A stretch of 64,000 nucleotides of DNA from an uncultured delta proteobacterium (GTDB lineage Bacteria; Desulfobacterota; Binatia; UBA9968). Location of the stretch: assembly GCA_963737905.1 (NCBI GenBank), contig CAVTUQ010000038.1, positions 77,736 to 141,735 on the forward strand, written 5' to 3'. A program made the position numbers and the translations under genes. The notes under the pieces were generated by a model, which saw only the letters and a program-made list of their open reading frames with translations, was not told the DNA's origin and made no database searches. Position 1 is the first letter of the stretch. Each line of letters opens with the position of its first letter. This document shows, piece after piece, positions 28,600-31,451 of this stretch.

Positions 28600-29571
28600 C
28601 TACATGGTCAACATGACCTTGCCGAAGTGCTCGCGCCCTTCGAGATAACGCTGAGCGGCGCGGGCTTCCGCCAACGGAAAGCTTTTGCCGATCACGACTT
28701 GAAATTTTTTCTCCTGGATAAGCTTTAAAATATCGTCGAGCTGTTTGAAATCTTCCGGCTTCGACTTTAGATAATTGGTAATCGAAAATCGCGTCGCTTT
28801 TCGACCGTCACTGAGATCCGGCAGCGGATCCGGAATCGCGCCAAAGGCGCCGCCGATGGAGAAAAGACGGCCGCCGGGCGCGAGTGCCTGCAAGCTTTTC
28901 TGAAAAACTTCGCCGCCGATCATTTCCAACACGACATCAACGCCACGATTGTTGGTGACGCGCATGACTTCCGGCAGAAAATCGGTTTCGGAGACGTCGA
29001 TGGTAACGTCGGCCCCCAGTTGTCGCAGTCTTCGACATTTCTCTTCGCTGCCGGAGGTCGCGACGACTTTCGCGCCCAGATGCTTGGCGATTTGGATCGC
29101 GGCATTGCCGACGCCGCTGCTCCCTCCTTGCACCAGCAGCCAGTCGCCGGCTTTGAGTTTGCCGTCCGTCAACAAGCCGAACCACGCGGTAAGACATACG
29201 GTGGGCGTTGCCGCCGCCTGGGCCGAGGTGACTCCGTCGGGGACGGGCCGCGCTTCGGAGGTTTTGGCGACCGCGTATTCCGCGTAACCGCCGAGACTCG
29301 GATAGGCAACGACACGCTGGCCTGCTTGGTATTCGTTAACGCCGGCACCTAGCTTTTCGACGGTGCCGGCGAATTCGCGACCCGGAATGAGCGGGAGCGC
29401 ATCGGCGGAAATACGATAGGTGCCCTTGCGCAGGCCGAGATCCGCGCGGTTCAAGGACGCCGCTTCGACTTTGATCAGAATCTCGCCCGCTTTGGGCTCG
29501 GGTACCGGGACATCTTCGTATTGGAGAGCGTCTTCCGTGGGGCCGAATTTGTGGATGCGAATGGCTTTCAT
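28600..29571 (-). CDS. NADPH:quinone oxidoreductase (zeta-crystallin/MDR family)
   Basis: SLNRAD...G.E.AG, GGYAEY, GGSSGVG and GKVML. Confidence 0.9.
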   Translation of the reverse strand: MKAIRIHKFGPTEDALQYEDVPVPEPKAGEILIKVEAASLNRADLGLRKGTYRISADALPLIPGREFAGTVEKLGAGVNEYQAGQRVVAYPSLGGYAEYAVAKTSEARPVPDGVTSAQAAATPTVCLTAWFGLLTDGKLKAGDWLLVQGGSSGVGNAAIQIAKHLGAKVVATSGSEEKCRRLRQLGADVTIDVSETDFLPEVMRVTNNRGVDVVLEMIGGEVFQKSLQALAPGGRLFSIGGAFGAIPDPLPDLSDGRKATRFSITNYLKSKPEDFKQLDDILKLIQEKKFQVVIGKSFPLAEARAAQRYLEGREHFGKVMLTM

Positions 29572-29674
29572 CGCTTTCGCCTCCTTTAACACTGTATTGA
29601 AGAAAGCTTAGACAGGATAACGTCTCTCTGTCAACGCGGAAAAGCTAGAGCACCCGCACGATTCACTTTGGTGC

Positions 29675-29703
29675 TTGCCTCGGTGGAGATAAGCGATTAT
29701 CCT
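29675..29703 (+). promoter_or_regulatory. Sigma70-type promoter for the leader peptide / tRNA-Gln transcript
   Basis: TTGCCT (29675-29680), 17 bp, TATCCT (29698-29703); ATG lies 8 nt downstream, i.e. near +1. Confidence 0.55.
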
Positions 29704-29711
29704 GATTTCAA

Positions 29712-29741
29712 ATGAACACTAGCCAGCAACAAACCCTGTAG
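29712..29741 (+). CDS. Putative Gln-rich attenuator leader peptide MNTSQQQTL (probably leaderless)
   Basis: ATG AAC ACT AGC CAG CAA CAA ACC CTG TAG; stop codon abuts the first hairpin; ends 86 nt before tRNA-Gln. Confidence 0.65.
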   Translation: MNTSQQQTL

Positions 29742-29823
29742 CCCGCCTTCACATCGTTGAAGGCAGGGTGGTCTGCCTTCTGGATAAGCGCCCCAGTAGG
29801 CATTGACCTTCTGGGGCGCTTTT
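29742..29823 (+). promoter_or_regulatory. Putative transcription attenuator (alternative hairpins plus intrinsic terminator)
   Basis: 1:2 GCCTTCA/TGAAGGC; 2:3 GAAGGCAG/CTGCCTTC; 3:4 TGCCTTCTGG/CCAGTAGGCA; terminator AAGCGCCCCAG/CTGGGGCGCTT with a TTTTAGCTTT tail. Confidence 0.65.
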
Positions 29824-29827
29824 AGCT

Positions 29828-29902
29828 TTGGGGATCGTCTAATTGGTAGGACATCAGACTTTGGATCTGAGAATCCAGGTTCGACTCCTGGTCCCCGAGC
29901 CA
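29828..29902 (+). tRNA. tRNA-Gln(UUG)
   Basis: Cloverleaf: TTGGGGA/TCCCCGA acceptor, TCAGA-CT TTG GA-TCTGA anticodon arm, CCAGG TTCGACT CCTGG T arm, G73 and CCA. Confidence 0.95.
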
Positions 29903-29917
29903 TTTCTTGTTCCGTGT

Positions 29918-29955
29918 TTGGGGGTCGTCTAATCGGTAGGACATCAGACTTTGAA
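29918..29955 (+). pseudogene. tRNA-Gln(UUG) second copy, 5' half (interrupted at the anticodon loop)
   Basis: TTGGGGGTCGTCTAATCGGTAGGACATCAGACTTTGAA, near-identical to copy 1, then diverges. Confidence 0.85.
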
Positions 29956-31415
29956 TCTTGAGACCCCAAATTCTCAAGAAATTATTTGCACGCGATCAGC
30001 GAAGAATTTTGTAGTAAAATCAAACGTAAAAATAATTACTTATAAAAAGTAAACTACTTTTAAAAACTAAATTGGAATGTTCTTTGCTTGGATCTAAAAT
30101 CCACTGGTGTCACCCGGTAACAACCCGGTAACAATAGAGCAGCTGCCAACAAGCTAGATGATTATGGCGGTCGGGTAGTGTCTGAGTTTGACCTAAAATG
30201 CTGGTCAGTCTTTGCTCGCAGAATCACGGGAATACGATAAGTTTTTTTGATCGTAATATGCTGACAGGATAATCACTAGTTTAGAGAGCATCAATGAATC
30301 TGCCCAAGGAAGCATGGCCACTTGTCGGAGCGTGTCTGCGGCCCGCTCAACAGAACGTTAACCATATCTCTATCTGTTATTGATCGTCTTTAGACCAAAG
30401 GAACGCCCACTGATGCAACCGCGCAAACTCGCGCCAGCGTCCACAAGTAAGTCGATTTTCCCTTCCCGACGAGCATATTAATACGAAAAACAAGGTTCTT
30501 TTTAGCTTGGCGAAAAAGAAATCGGTTTCGTTTAATACGCTCCAGGCTCCCAAGTAGACCAAGGCGAGTGATGAAGGCTTAAGACTCGCATTGCTTATGA
30601 CAGTCGTGTCGGTGAGGACAGTCGAAGCGCGATTCACTATTCCCGATATGGAGAGACCCCGGCTATTTATCGGATGTGGATCAGGCAAAGAAAAAGAAAA
30701 TGACTATGAATATCGAAGCATCTACTGGTTTGCTTGGATGGTATCTGGTGGCTTTTGGAGTAACGTTAGATCTTCACTGAAGCTATTGATAGAACTAACT
30801 CATAACTTTGTGCAATCCCGAAAATCGACGCACTATCGAAAACGTTACTCTTCAAGTTATGGAAATTTGGGAAGAAAAATGACTCCAAATTGGACGAAGA
30901 AAAAATCAAGAACTGAATCTTCGGATGGTCGAGTTTGGACAGATTAAGTTATGCGCTGTGGTCCTCACAGTTTACAAATGTAATAAGTTACACCATTTAG
31001 TGCGCGTGCCTAGGGTTCTTACCATTGTTGATTTTCTTTTTTCCTGTAAATGTTCAGAGCGTAACTCCAGTTCTAGCGTAGGAAAGATCTATTATCCTGT
31101 GGGTGTGGGAGCCTCCATTTATTACTCTTGCTATAGCCAAACGTGTGTCGTGTGTGTTGAGCATACTTGCTTAGCATATTGATTTGAGAGGTAGGTTATT
31201 CAGAGTTGCGAAAGCCAACGAACGCGGGTTTTCGAAAAGTAGATTTCGAACGGCTAGATTACTGAAACCGGGAAAGGGCTAAGTTCGTTAGATTCGGGAA
31301 GCCGTTGAGCAAACCATAATTAATAAGAAACCAGCCTGGCCGAAGGTTTGAAAGTCGTGATTTCTTTTTTTCGTTGCGGCGCGCCGTGGACGACGACCCT
31401 ACATAAGATAAACAA
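29956..31415. mobile_element. AT-rich 1.46-kb integrated element remnant splitting tRNA-Gln; no integrase visible
   Basis: Lies exactly between the two tRNA halves; abrupt GC drop; tandem ACCCGGTAACA repeats at 30112-30133; no convincing long ORF. Confidence 0.7.
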
Positions 31416-31451
31416 TCTGAAAATCTAGGTTCGAGACCTAGCCCCAAGCCA
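31416..31451 (+). pseudogene. tRNA-Gln second copy, displaced 3' half
   Basis: TCTGA AAAT CTAGG TTCGAGA CCTAG CCCCAA G CCA; complements the 5' half (one C short in the homopolymer). Confidence 0.85.

What the first reader, a model, noticed from the sequence alone, without database searches (positions are those of the whole stretch)
29675..29955. Gln-codon leader-peptide attenuator controlling tRNA-Gln genes (tRNA autoregulation)
Seen: promoter TTGCCT-17-TATCCT; 8 nt later an SD-less uORF ATG AAC ACT AGC CAG CAA CAA ACC CTG TAG (MNTSQQQTL, 29712-29741). Mutually exclusive helices follow: 1:2 (29745-51/29758-64), 2:3 (29759-66/29773-80), 3:4 (29774-83/29793-802, 9 of 10 pairs) and a terminator 4:5 (29786-96/29811-21, TTTTAGCTTT tail) ending just before tandem tRNA-Gln(UUG) genes. 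CCTTCTGG occurs in both segments 3 and 5. Established: leader peptides with runs of cognate codons control amino acid operons and pheST, and tRNA-Gln(UUG) reads CAA/CAG. Inference: a ribosome reaching the stop masks segment 1, so 2:3 and the terminator form. Stalling at QQQ allows 1:2 and the 3:4 antiterminator, giving more tRNA-Gln. The regulated product would be the tRNA that decodes the sensor codons, possibly also reporting glutamine/nitrogen status. I know of no described leader-peptide attenuator for a tRNA gene.
Basis: partly seen in the sequence, partly recalled or inferred. Interest (0 to 1): 0.95.

Follow-up and report, generated by a model that had tools for sequence, protein, structure and literature searches.

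The report
Glutamine-codon leader switch before spare tRNA-Gln
A conserved 115-base leader in some uncultured soil bacteria (labelled Binatia) has the parts of a classic ribosome-sensing transcription switch, yet it sits in front of spare glutamine-tRNA genes rather than protein genes, a target not described before.

Summary
Promoter, SD-less 9-codon uORF (MNTSQQQTL), overlapping helices and a terminator ending 6 nt before tRNA-Gln(UUG) all lie at the stated coordinates. The second "tandem" tRNA-Gln is not intact: a 1,455-nt insertion splits it.

The leader is conserved from its -35 box onward in 43 loci (6 relatives' genomes, 37 soil and sediment metagenome contigs).
- The uORF is intact in 42 of 42 loci with enough sequence. 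AUG and UAG never vary, the only uORF indel is 3 nt, and at least two Gln codons are always kept (QQQ in 34 of 42).
- The terminator covaries.
- All 43 leaders abut a tRNA-Gln.
- That tRNA is a divergent accessory paralog found only at leader loci. The genome has separate housekeeping tRNA-Gln genes without the leader.

An extra pairing, uORF with segment 3, turns the design into a trp-like four-segment attenuator with an inserted relay hairpin. Masked folding reproduces the stall-dependent switch.

No known RNA family matches, and six literature searches found no leader-peptide attenuator of a tRNA gene.

Nothing is experimentally shown. The antiterminator helices lack covariation evidence, and the third Gln codon is Arg in 6 of 35 distinct leaders. 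I put ribosome-mediated attenuation at about 0.6.

The parts
29675..29680 (+). -35 box TTGCCT
   Evidence: Sequence conservation across loci begins exactly here (TTGC in 31 of 32 distinct upstream regions); everything further upstream is not conserved.
29698..29703 (+). -10 box TATCCT (consensus TATnCT), inside a conserved inverted repeat GATAA-N4-TTATC
   Evidence: 17-nt spacer in the window. The ATG follows 8 nt later in 31 of 32 distinct sequences. Predicted start about 29710-29712, which is an inference.
29712..29741 (+). SD-less (probably leaderless) uORF encoding MNTSQQQTL; Gln codons at 29724-29732
   Evidence: Intact in 42 of 42 loci. AUG and UAG are invariant islands between variable columns. 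The one indel inside the uORF is 3 nt. There are 19 different peptides.
29723..29735 (+). Segment 0: the uORF bases CCAG and CAAACC that pair with segment 3
   Evidence: RNAalifold consensus. Cells paired: 97.1% and 93.6%, against 31-50% when the partner is slid.
29741..29769 (+). Hairpin 1:2 (29741-29751 with 29758-29769; 11 pairs and a bulged A), starting at the G of the stop codon
   Evidence: In the MFE structure. 98.7% of cells paired, with changes only to G.U wobble.
29770..29784 (+). Segment 3, GGTCTGCCTTCTGGA, complementary to segments 0, 2 and 4
   Evidence: Invariant in all 6 intact genome copies found without any constraint on it. 2:3 is 99.7% paired and 3:4 is 88.5% paired.
29786..29829 (+). 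Intrinsic terminator: segment 4 (29786-29802) with segment 5 (29807-29821), 14 pairs and one U.U mismatch, then TTTTAGCTTT
   Evidence: Three pairs covary: AU 25 / CG 9 / UG 1; AU 21 / GC 7 / GU 7; AU 31 / UA 2. Present in every full-length fold.
29828..29902 (+). Accessory tRNA-Gln(UUG), CCA encoded
   Evidence: ARAGORN; Rfam RF00005 at 59.2 bits. 72-75% identical to the genome's two other tRNA-Gln genes.
29918..29958 (+). 5' fragment (positions 1-41) of a second tRNA-Gln(UUG)
   Evidence: Matches the intact second gene of other loci and then diverges.
29959..31413 (.). 1,455-nt AT-rich insertion that splits the second tRNA-Gln, flanked by the direct repeat AATCT
   Evidence: GC 0.42-0.46 against 0.55 nearby. 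No Pfam hit in its small ORFs. No Rfam family.
31414..31451 (+). 3' fragment of the second tRNA-Gln (one C missing from the acceptor strand)
   Evidence: Read directly; located through a tblastx match to the tRNA ends of other loci.

Best explanation
This is a ribosome-mediated (leader-peptide) transcription attenuator that controls an accessory tRNA-Gln cassette.

A sigma-70-type promoter starts an RNA at or within 2 nt of an AUG, so the 8-9-codon uORF is translated as a leaderless message (inferred). The RNA has a trp-like logic. Segment 0 (the uORF, including the Gln codons) pairs with segment 3. Segment 3 can instead pair with segment 4, forming an antiterminator that traps the terminator's 5' arm. 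Segment 4 pairs with segment 5 to form the terminator, 6 nt before the tRNA. A stable hairpin 1:2 sits between segments 0 and 3 and acts as a relay, and possibly as a pause hairpin.

Three states follow.
- Gln-tRNA-Gln scarce: the ribosome stalls on CAG-CAA-CAR and covers segment 0 but not hairpin 1:2. Segment 3 is free and pairs with 4, so polymerase reads into the tRNA gene(s).
- Gln decoding fast: the ribosome reaches UAG and melts segment 1. Segment 2 captures segment 3, and 4:5 terminates.
- No translation: 0:3 plus 1:2 tend to sequester segment 3, which also favours termination.

The product is a divergent extra pair of tRNA-Gln isoacceptors (CUG and UUG). Decoding capacity for CAA/CAG would therefore feed back on its own supply.

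Shown here: the sequence anatomy, its conservation, terminator covariation and the exclusive linkage to tRNA-Gln. Inferred: the transcription start, translation, stalling, termination and the direction of regulation.
For: 1. Anatomy at the stated coordinates, and unusually stable folding.

2. Conservation begins at the -35 box and runs to the tRNA. This holds in 6 genomes of 5 genera of one family and in 37 metagenome contigs retrieved with a pattern that lies outside the uORF.

3. The uORF is intact in 42 of 42 loci that have enough sequence.
- AUG and UAG are invariant while the 7 nt before AUG and codons 2-4 and 8-9 vary; there are 19 peptides.
- The only indel inside the uORF is 3 nt and lies upstream of the Gln codons, so the spacing from Gln codons to stop to hairpin is fixed. 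Indels elsewhere are 1-2 nt.
- The distance from the -10 box to ATG is 8 nt in 31 of 32 distinct sequences, and there is no SD.

4. Gln codons: at least two consecutive in 42 of 42 loci, three in 34 of 42.
- The middle CAA is invariant although it is unpaired in the consensus structure.
- CAA/CAG changes that break a 0:3 pair are all synonymous: 12 and 3 of 35 cells.

5. The terminator covaries at three pairs.

6. Segment 3, which has three partners, is the most invariant stretch in the six copies found without constraining it.

7. ViennaRNA folds with a ribosome mask, run on 7 of the 35 distinct leaders.
- A-site on the first Gln codon: 1:2 plus 3:4 form before segment 5 exists, in 7 of 7.
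- A-site on the stop codon: 2:3 forms and segment 4 is left free, in 7 of 7.

8. All 43 leaders are followed directly by tRNA-Gln: 41 are called by ARAGORN and 2 are cut by contig ends inside the tRNA.

9. The tRNA paralog occurs only at leader loci: 7 of 123 genomes of the order. G000 has housekeeping tRNA-Gln(UUG) and (CUG) genes elsewhere without any leader.

10. Of the 44 tRNA genes in G000, only this one has a terminator abutting it together with a uORF holding a cognate-codon run.

11. In the two copies where the tRNA is degenerate (G076, G077), the uORF is also destroyed.

12. Leaderless leader peptides upstream of aminoacyl-tRNA synthetase genes are described in Deinococcus deserti (PMC4007540, passages read).
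Against: No experimental datum exists.

The third Gln codon is CGG (Arg) in 6 of 35 distinct leaders, a change that keeps a G.U pair with segment 3. The first is GAG in 1 of 35. Part of the 'Gln codon' conservation may therefore be structural.

Helices 2:3 and 3:4 show only one-sided changes. Segment 3 was fixed by the metagenome search pattern, so covariation could not appear. In 2 of 35 leaders a change compensated in 4:5 leaves a second mismatch in 3:4.

The antiterminator always has a U.U mismatch and is far weaker than the terminator, which is in every full-length MFE.

The untranslated state is ambiguous: 3:4 still forms in 3 of 7 masked folds, including this window.

One contig of a metatranscriptome run carries about 115 nt upstream of a relative's AUG. 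If that contig is RNA, it would put a start upstream of the predicted promoter; DNA carry-over cannot be excluded.

Leaderless translation is not shown for this lineage.

The physiological gain from more tRNA is unclear when housekeeping tRNA-Gln genes also read the sensor codons.
Confidence: 0.6

Rival explanations
1. A ribosome-independent structured leader: a riboswitch, or a protein- or tRNA-binding RNA. A ligand, rather than a translating ribosome, would choose between the same alternative helices and the terminator. On this view the 'uORF' is simply the 5' strand of the long 0:3 helix.
For: The uORF bases pair with segment 3 in 93.6-97.1% of cells. The amino-acid-changing substitutions CAG>CGG and ACC>AUU/AUC keep G.U pairs. 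The invariant CAA sits in an internal loop, where a codon-like specifier could lie. High nucleotide conservation along the whole leader is typical of ligand-binding RNAs.
Against: No Rfam family matches, T-box and glutamine riboswitch families included, even at E up to 10. The leader is about 115 nt, too short for a T-box Stem I. This model does not explain several observations: the invariant AUG and UAG islands, the fixed -10-to-AUG distance, the in-frame 3-nt indel, and the synonymous CAA/CAG changes that break pairs.
Confidence: 0.2
2. An independent small gene (a roughly 115-nt sRNA and/or a 9-residue peptide) with its own terminator. The tRNA would be made by constitutive leak-through or processing, and the alternative helices would have no regulatory role.
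For: The terminator is strong and sits in every full-length MFE. Attenuator RNAs and their peptides can act in trans, as with rnTrpL/peTrpL of Sinorhizobium (abstracts listed).
Against: The leader is never found apart from tRNA-Gln (43 of 43). The terminator tail overlaps the tRNA's first bases, so there is no room for a separate promoter, and none was found inside the leader. Peptide residues other than Q are free to vary. The chain of overlapping complementarities is rare by chance: 2 of 20,000 shuffles.
Confidence: 0.12
3. A chance uORF and hairpins in an ordinary tRNA promoter region.
For: Short ORFs and 9-of-10 complementarities are common; the 3:4-type match alone occurs in 23% of shuffles.
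Against: Conservation in 43 loci that starts exactly at the promoter, terminator covariation, and co-decay with the tRNA.
Confidence: 0.02

Closest known systems
Leader-peptide attenuators of amino-acid operons (trpL, hisL, pheL, leuL, thrL; recalled textbook systems; trp logic as summarised in PMC4007540)
   Same: A promoter-proximal short ORF with a run of regulatory codons. Segment 1 (the ORF) pairs with segment 2; 2:3 is an antiterminator and 3:4 a terminator. Stalling gives read-through.
   Different: The regulated product is a tRNA, not an enzyme. The uORF has no SD and probably starts at the 5' end. An extra hairpin (1:2) acts as a relay between the ORF segment and the antiterminator strand. 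Only 8-9 codons.
pheM leader controlling pheST (phenylalanyl-tRNA synthetase) in E. coli
   Same: A component of the translation machinery is controlled by ribosome stalling at codons that depend on that same component. This is the closest match in feedback logic.
   Different: The target there is a protein-coding synthetase operon. Here the target is the tRNA that reads the sensor codons.
Leaderless leader peptides: Deinococcus deserti aaRS and amino-acid gene leaders (PMC4007540, passages read); polycysteine leaderless sORFs in mycobacteria (10.1101/834739, listing and start of abstract only)
   Same: The AUG lies at or within 1-2 nt of the transcription start, there is no SD, and very short peptides are enriched in the sensed residue.
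   Different: Those control protein genes. The start site is only predicted here.
T-box riboswitches (Rfam RF00230)
   Same: A leader with a terminator/antiterminator choice that reports tRNA charging. A codon-like triplet (CAA) lies in an internal loop of the consensus fold.
   Different: No Rfam match at gathering score or at E up to 10. No Stem I. The leader is roughly half the usual length. T-boxes are not known upstream of tRNA genes (recalled).

Membership tests
Ribosome-mediated (leader-peptide) transcription attenuator | Short ORF close to the transcription start, kept open in relatives | tested here: met
   uORF intact in 42 of 42 loci. AUG and UAG invariant. The only indel is in frame.
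Ribosome-mediated (leader-peptide) transcription attenuator | The ORF is actually translated | not testable with these tools
   No SD. Leaderless start inferred from the fixed 8-nt distance between the -10 box and AUG. No Ribo-seq or raw RNA reads were available.
Ribosome-mediated (leader-peptide) transcription attenuator | Run of codons for the sensed aminoacyl-tRNA | tested here: met
   At least two consecutive Gln codons in 42 of 42 loci, three in 34 of 42. QQR in 6 and EQQ in 2.
Ribosome-mediated (leader-peptide) transcription attenuator | Intrinsic terminator between the ORF and the regulated gene | tested here: met
   15-pair helix, 97.1% paired, with three covarying pairs and a U-rich tail. 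Termination itself is not shown.
Ribosome-mediated (leader-peptide) transcription attenuator | Antiterminator mutually exclusive with the terminator | tested here: inconclusive
   3:4 is complementary in 88.5% of cells with a constant U.U mismatch. There are no two-sided changes, and segment 3 was fixed by the search pattern.
Ribosome-mediated (leader-peptide) transcription attenuator | The position of the stalled ribosome selects the antiterminator, and that of the terminating ribosome selects the terminator | tested here: met
   In silico only. Masked folds of 7 of the 35 distinct leaders gave 7 of 7 for both states. The untranslated state was ambiguous in 3 of 7.
Ribosome-mediated (leader-peptide) transcription attenuator | Read-through responds to the level of charged tRNA | not testable with these tools
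   Needs reporter assays or coupled in vitro assays.
T-box riboswitch | Match to the T-box covariance model (Stem I, specifier loop, T-box sequence) | tested here: not met
   No RF00230 hit at gathering score or at E up to 10 on 29650-29835.
Glutamine riboswitches (glnA RNA, Downstream-peptide, Gln-II) | Match to the Rfam models | tested here: not met
   No hit. The best sub-threshold hits were terminator-like similarities (NsiR1, 19.4 bits against a gathering score of 39).
tRNA-Gln | Cloverleaf with a UUG/CUG anticodon | tested here: met
   ARAGORN. RF00005 at 59.2 bits. U1-A72 read directly.

The most novel reading that the evidence does not exclude
This would be the first ribosome-sensing attenuator whose output is a tRNA: a closed-loop homeostat for decoding capacity. 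Ribosomes that stall on CAG/CAA switch on a spare, sequence-divergent pair of tRNA-Gln isoacceptors.

The spare tRNAs have the same D-stem sequence as the genome's own tRNA-Glu, and the genome encodes GlnRS, GluRS and GatB. A bolder extension follows, for which there is no direct evidence: the switch may reroute Gln-tRNA-Gln synthesis to the GluRS/GatCAB pathway when the GlnRS route fails, or it may supply tRNAs that escape an agent attacking the housekeeping tRNA-Gln.
Probability: 0.5. Interest if true: 0.9.

Novelty: new variant of a known kind. Interest (0 to 1): 0.8.

Why it matters
Bacterial tRNA genes are usually treated as growth-rate-controlled at their promoters. Codon-specific, ribosome-sensed control of a single tRNA species has not been described in the literature I could search.

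If real, this element shows that leader-peptide attenuation can govern a non-coding RNA product. It would also show that cells can hold conditionally expressed spare isoacceptors. That bears on how decoding capacity is kept stable under starvation or tRNA damage.

It also offers a compact part of about 115 nt that reports Gln decoding.

The case is directly testable with simple reporters, because all parts lie within 250 nt.

Tried and rejected
Known RNA families. A whole-window Rfam scan found only the tRNA. A permissive scan of 29650-29835 gave 11 hits, all far below their gathering scores and all terminator-like. T-box and glutamine riboswitch readings were rejected as memberships.

Mobile origin.
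- No match for the leader in phages. Six phage records matched the tRNA part only, at 79-86% identity; the Escherichia phage hits were annotated tRNA-Glu.
- No match in plasmids.
- Two patterns found nothing in viral contigs.
- No integrase or other Pfam hit beside the tRNA.
- The upstream ADH gene is shared by 23 of 36 loci, so the cassette is chromosomal.
- An island integrated at the tRNA's 3' end was rejected: the broken copy is a simple split with a 5-nt direct repeat.

A separate tRNA promoter inside the leader: none at 9 of 12 or more consensus matches.

Similar devices at the other 43 tRNA genes of G000: none. The LL, RR, SS and AA runs found there lie in unrelated ORFs without an abutting terminator.

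Phylum-wide search with model R2 (151 genomes including G000). There were 5 weak hits of 24-36 bits outside G000. None was beside a tRNA-Gln and one was near a tRNA-Leu, so I took them as generic hairpins. In the family search, the hits in G069 (L026) and the second hit in G076 (L029) were unrelated hairpins. The G089 hit (L027) was not examined.

The genome contigs 19-mer scan gave 12 hits. The other 9 (Lachnospiraceae and others) were treated as unrelated and not examined.

Codon rarity. CAA makes up 42% of Gln codons in long ORFs, so the sensor codon is not rare.

RNA evidence. Two metatranscriptome runs held only 5-8% of the sampled words, and only assembled contigs were available. They cannot show starts, ends or strand. 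Uncovered parts (29644-29727) mean nothing. One contig bridges segment 3 to the tRNA (29768-29849), and one carries about 115 nt upstream of a relative's AUG. Both may be DNA carry-over.

Supplementary files of papers were not requested; none seemed to bear on the claims.

Six literature searches bear on the 'not in print' claim. They cover only the held open-access library and bioRxiv.

Full report
WHAT IS THERE

The window carries the following, read directly:
- TTGCCT (29675-80), a 17-nt spacer, then TATCCT (29698-703).
- Eight nt later, with no Shine-Dalgarno sequence, ATG AAC ACT AGC CAG CAA CAA ACC CTG TAG (29712-41).
- A stable hairpin that starts at the G of the stop codon (29741-51 with 29758-69).
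- The stretch GGTCTGCCTTCTGGA (29770-84).
- A GC-rich hairpin (29786-802 with 29807-21), followed by TTTTAGCTTT.
- A tRNA-Gln(UUG) at 29828-29902.

The 126-nt leader folds at -50.2 kcal/mol (z = -4.0; 0 of 200 shuffles as stable).

The "tandem" second tRNA-Gln is not intact. Its first 41 nt (29918-58) and its last 38 nt (31414-51) are separated by 1,455 nt of AT-rich DNA flanked by the direct repeat AATCT.

CONSERVATION

BLASTN of the region hit 3 of 40 related genomes. A covariance model hit 10 of 90 genomes of the family, G000 included. Of those ten:
- Six carry an intact leader plus tRNA: G000, G001, G021, G023, G059 and the unpublished G048.
- Two carry decayed copies: G076 and G077.
- The remaining hits are unrelated hairpins.

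One of the matching contigs is labelled Candidatus Binatia in the public record.

A metagenome scan used a pattern lying in segments 3-4, outside the uORF. It returned 37 contigs. Together these give 43 loci and 35 distinct leader sequences.

Alignment is lost immediately upstream of the -35 TTGC, and the conserved block runs from there to the tRNA.

THE uORF

The uORF is open in 42 of 42 loci that reach far enough upstream; L031 is cut by its contig end.
- AUG and UAG are invariant, while the 7 nt before AUG and codons 2-4 and 8-9 vary. There are 19 different peptides.
- The single indel inside the uORF is 3 nt (the MKVQQQTG group) and lies upstream of the Gln codons. Indels elsewhere in the leader are 1-2 nt.
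- The distance from the -10 box to AUG is 8 nt in 31 of 32 distinct upstream regions. This fits a transcript that starts at or within two bases of the AUG.

Leaderless leader peptides of about ten residues are described upstream of synthetase genes in Deinococcus deserti (PMC4007540, passages read).

Two consecutive Gln codons are kept in 42 of 42 loci and three in 34 of 42. Six loci have QQR and two have EQQ. The middle CAA never varies.

STRUCTURE

The terminator (4:5) is 97.1% paired with three covarying pairs.

The uORF bases CCAG and CA(A/G)ACC(AU) pair with CUGG and (GU)GGUCUG of segment 3. These are 97.1% and 93.6% paired, against 31-50% for slid controls.

This makes the device a classic four-segment attenuator:
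- uORF = segment 1
- segment 3 = segment 2
- segment 4 = segment 3
- segment 5 = segment 4
The 1:2 hairpin is inserted in the first loop. Segment 2 of that hairpin can also capture segment 3 (2:3, 99.7% paired).

Helix 3:4 is 88.5% paired, with a U.U mismatch in all 35 sequences.

Segment 3 is invariant in the six copies found without constraining it, as expected for a strand with three partners. It was fixed by my metagenome pattern, however, so 2:3 and 3:4 could only show one-sided changes. Those changes are all to G.U, except that 2 of 35 leaders gain a second mismatch in 3:4.

The constraints on the Gln codons are mixed.
- CAA/CAG changes that break a 0:3 pair are synonymous (12 and 3 of 35 cells).
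- CAG>CGG (Gln to Arg, 6 of 35) keeps a wobble pair.

So both coding and pairing constraints act on these codons, and neither is absolute.

The whole chain of overlapping complementarities arose in 2 of 20,000 shuffles. The 3:4 match alone arose in 4,650 of 20,000.

SWITCH LOGIC IN SILICO

I folded 7 of the 35 distinct leaders with the 5' part masked as a ribosome would mask it, assuming 12 nt beyond the A-site codon. The RNA was cut just before segment 5.
- A-site on the first Gln codon: the MFE holds 1:2 plus a 3:4 pairing in 7 of 7. In the unpublished G048 copy the register is shifted and longer.
- A-site on the stop codon: 2:3 forms and segment 4 is left free in 7 of 7.
- No ribosome: 0:3 plus 1:2 sequester segment 3 in 4 of 7. 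In 3 of 7, this window among them, 3:4 still forms, so the untranslated state is uncertain.

Every full-length fold contains the terminator, so any decision must be kinetic, as in known attenuators.

WHAT IS REGULATED

All 43 leaders abut a tRNA-Gln. ARAGORN, and 2 are cut by contig ends inside the tRNA.
- 27 of the 41 called loci begin with tRNA-Gln(CUG) and 14 with tRNA-Gln(UUG).
- 23 have a second tRNA-Gln(UUG) within 600 nt.

G000 has 44 tRNA genes, three of them tRNA-Gln:
- a housekeeping UUG gene;
- a housekeeping CUG gene beside gltX and glnS;
- this one.

This one is only 72-75% identical to the other two.

BLAST with this tRNA finds it in 7 of 123 genomes of the order, always at a leader locus.

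Three near-complete relatives keep the neighbouring ADH gene (82-84% identity) but have neither leader nor tRNA next to it. The cassette is therefore accessory.

In G076 and G077 the tRNA is degenerate and the uORF is destroyed as well.

No other tRNA gene of G000 has an abutting terminator plus a uORF with a cognate-codon run.

COMPARISON AND NOVELTY

The element works like the trp/his/phe leaders. In feedback logic it is closest to the pheM-pheST attenuator (recalled).

It differs in three ways: the target is a tRNA, the start is probably leaderless, and there is a relay hairpin.

It is not a T-box or a glutamine riboswitch by Rfam.

Six full-text searches found no leader-peptide attenuator of a tRNA gene. 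The attenuator survey PMC2965389 mentions tRNA only in other contexts (passages read).

LIMITS

All evidence is comparative or thermodynamic. The only RNA data are assembled metatranscriptome contigs from two runs.
- One contig bridges segment 3 and the tRNA.
- One extends about 115 nt upstream of a relative's AUG, which would argue against the predicted start if it is RNA rather than DNA carry-over.

The benefit of inducing more tRNA-Gln is unexplained. There is one lead. The accessory tRNA shares its four-pair D-stem sequence (GUCU/GGAC) with the genome's own tRNA-Glu. PMC2777447 (passages read) describes such a four-pair stem as typical of tRNA-Glu and as the site of major identity elements for E. 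coli GluRS. The genome encodes GlnRS, GluRS and GatB. An alternative charging route is therefore conceivable but untested. One housekeeping tRNA-Gln also has a four-pair D-stem.

VERDICT

The leader-peptide attenuator reading is the best supported (about 0.6). Its rivals are a ribosome-independent structured leader (about 0.2) and an independent small gene (about 0.12). It is a new variant of a known mechanism with a new class of target.

Noticed in passing
window 29918-29958, 29959-31413, 31414-31451: The second tRNA-Gln(UUG) is split after position 41 by a 1,455-nt AT-rich insertion (GC about 0.42) flanked by the 5-nt direct repeat AATCT. The insertion has no Pfam-matching ORF, no Rfam family (so no recognised intron) and no terminal inverted repeat. 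Metagenome contig L040 shares its left end, so it is not an assembly artefact.
   Followed up: partly
window 29828-29902; L040: The first tRNA has the body that carries anticodon CUG in 27 other loci. Here, and in L040, it carries UUG. These are the two loci where the downstream UUG gene is broken or degenerate, which looks like an anticodon switch compensating for the lost isoacceptor.
   Followed up: partly
window 29685-29703 and 29782-29788: The promoter spacer is unusually conserved and forms an inverted repeat, GATAA-N4-TTATC, that overlaps the -10 box. The word GGATAAG recurs between segments 3 and 4. This may be an operator for a DNA-binding regulator acting on top of attenuation.
   Followed up: no
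window 29609-29645: A palindrome-like motif, TTAGACAGGAT..N..CTGTCAA, lies upstream of the divergent zinc-ADH gene (28600-29592, minus strand). It is also conserved in relatives that lack the tRNA cassette (G070, G049) and is probably that gene's own operator.
   Followed up: no
G000 contig C25 about 209070-212191 (L085-L087): glnS and gltX are divergently arranged and are followed by housekeeping tRNA-Gln(CUG) and tRNA-Glu(CUC). GatB is also present (C22). The genome may therefore have both the direct and the transamidation route to Gln-tRNA-Gln. The accessory tRNA-Gln has the same D-stem sequence as tRNA-Glu.
   Followed up: partly
L024 (G076) and L025 (G077): Decayed copies of the cassette. 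In G076 the Gln run and the stop codon are lost and ARAGORN calls no tRNA. In G077 a deletion removes the sequence from the Gln codons to segment 3, and the tRNA has mismatched stems. The promoter, segment 3 and the terminator are still recognisable.
   Followed up: partly
L089-L091 (G074, G070, G049): The locus between the ADH and amidohydrolase genes is variable. Relatives carry unrelated genes there instead of the leader-tRNA cassette, so the site behaves as a small hot spot for gain and loss.
   Followed up: partly
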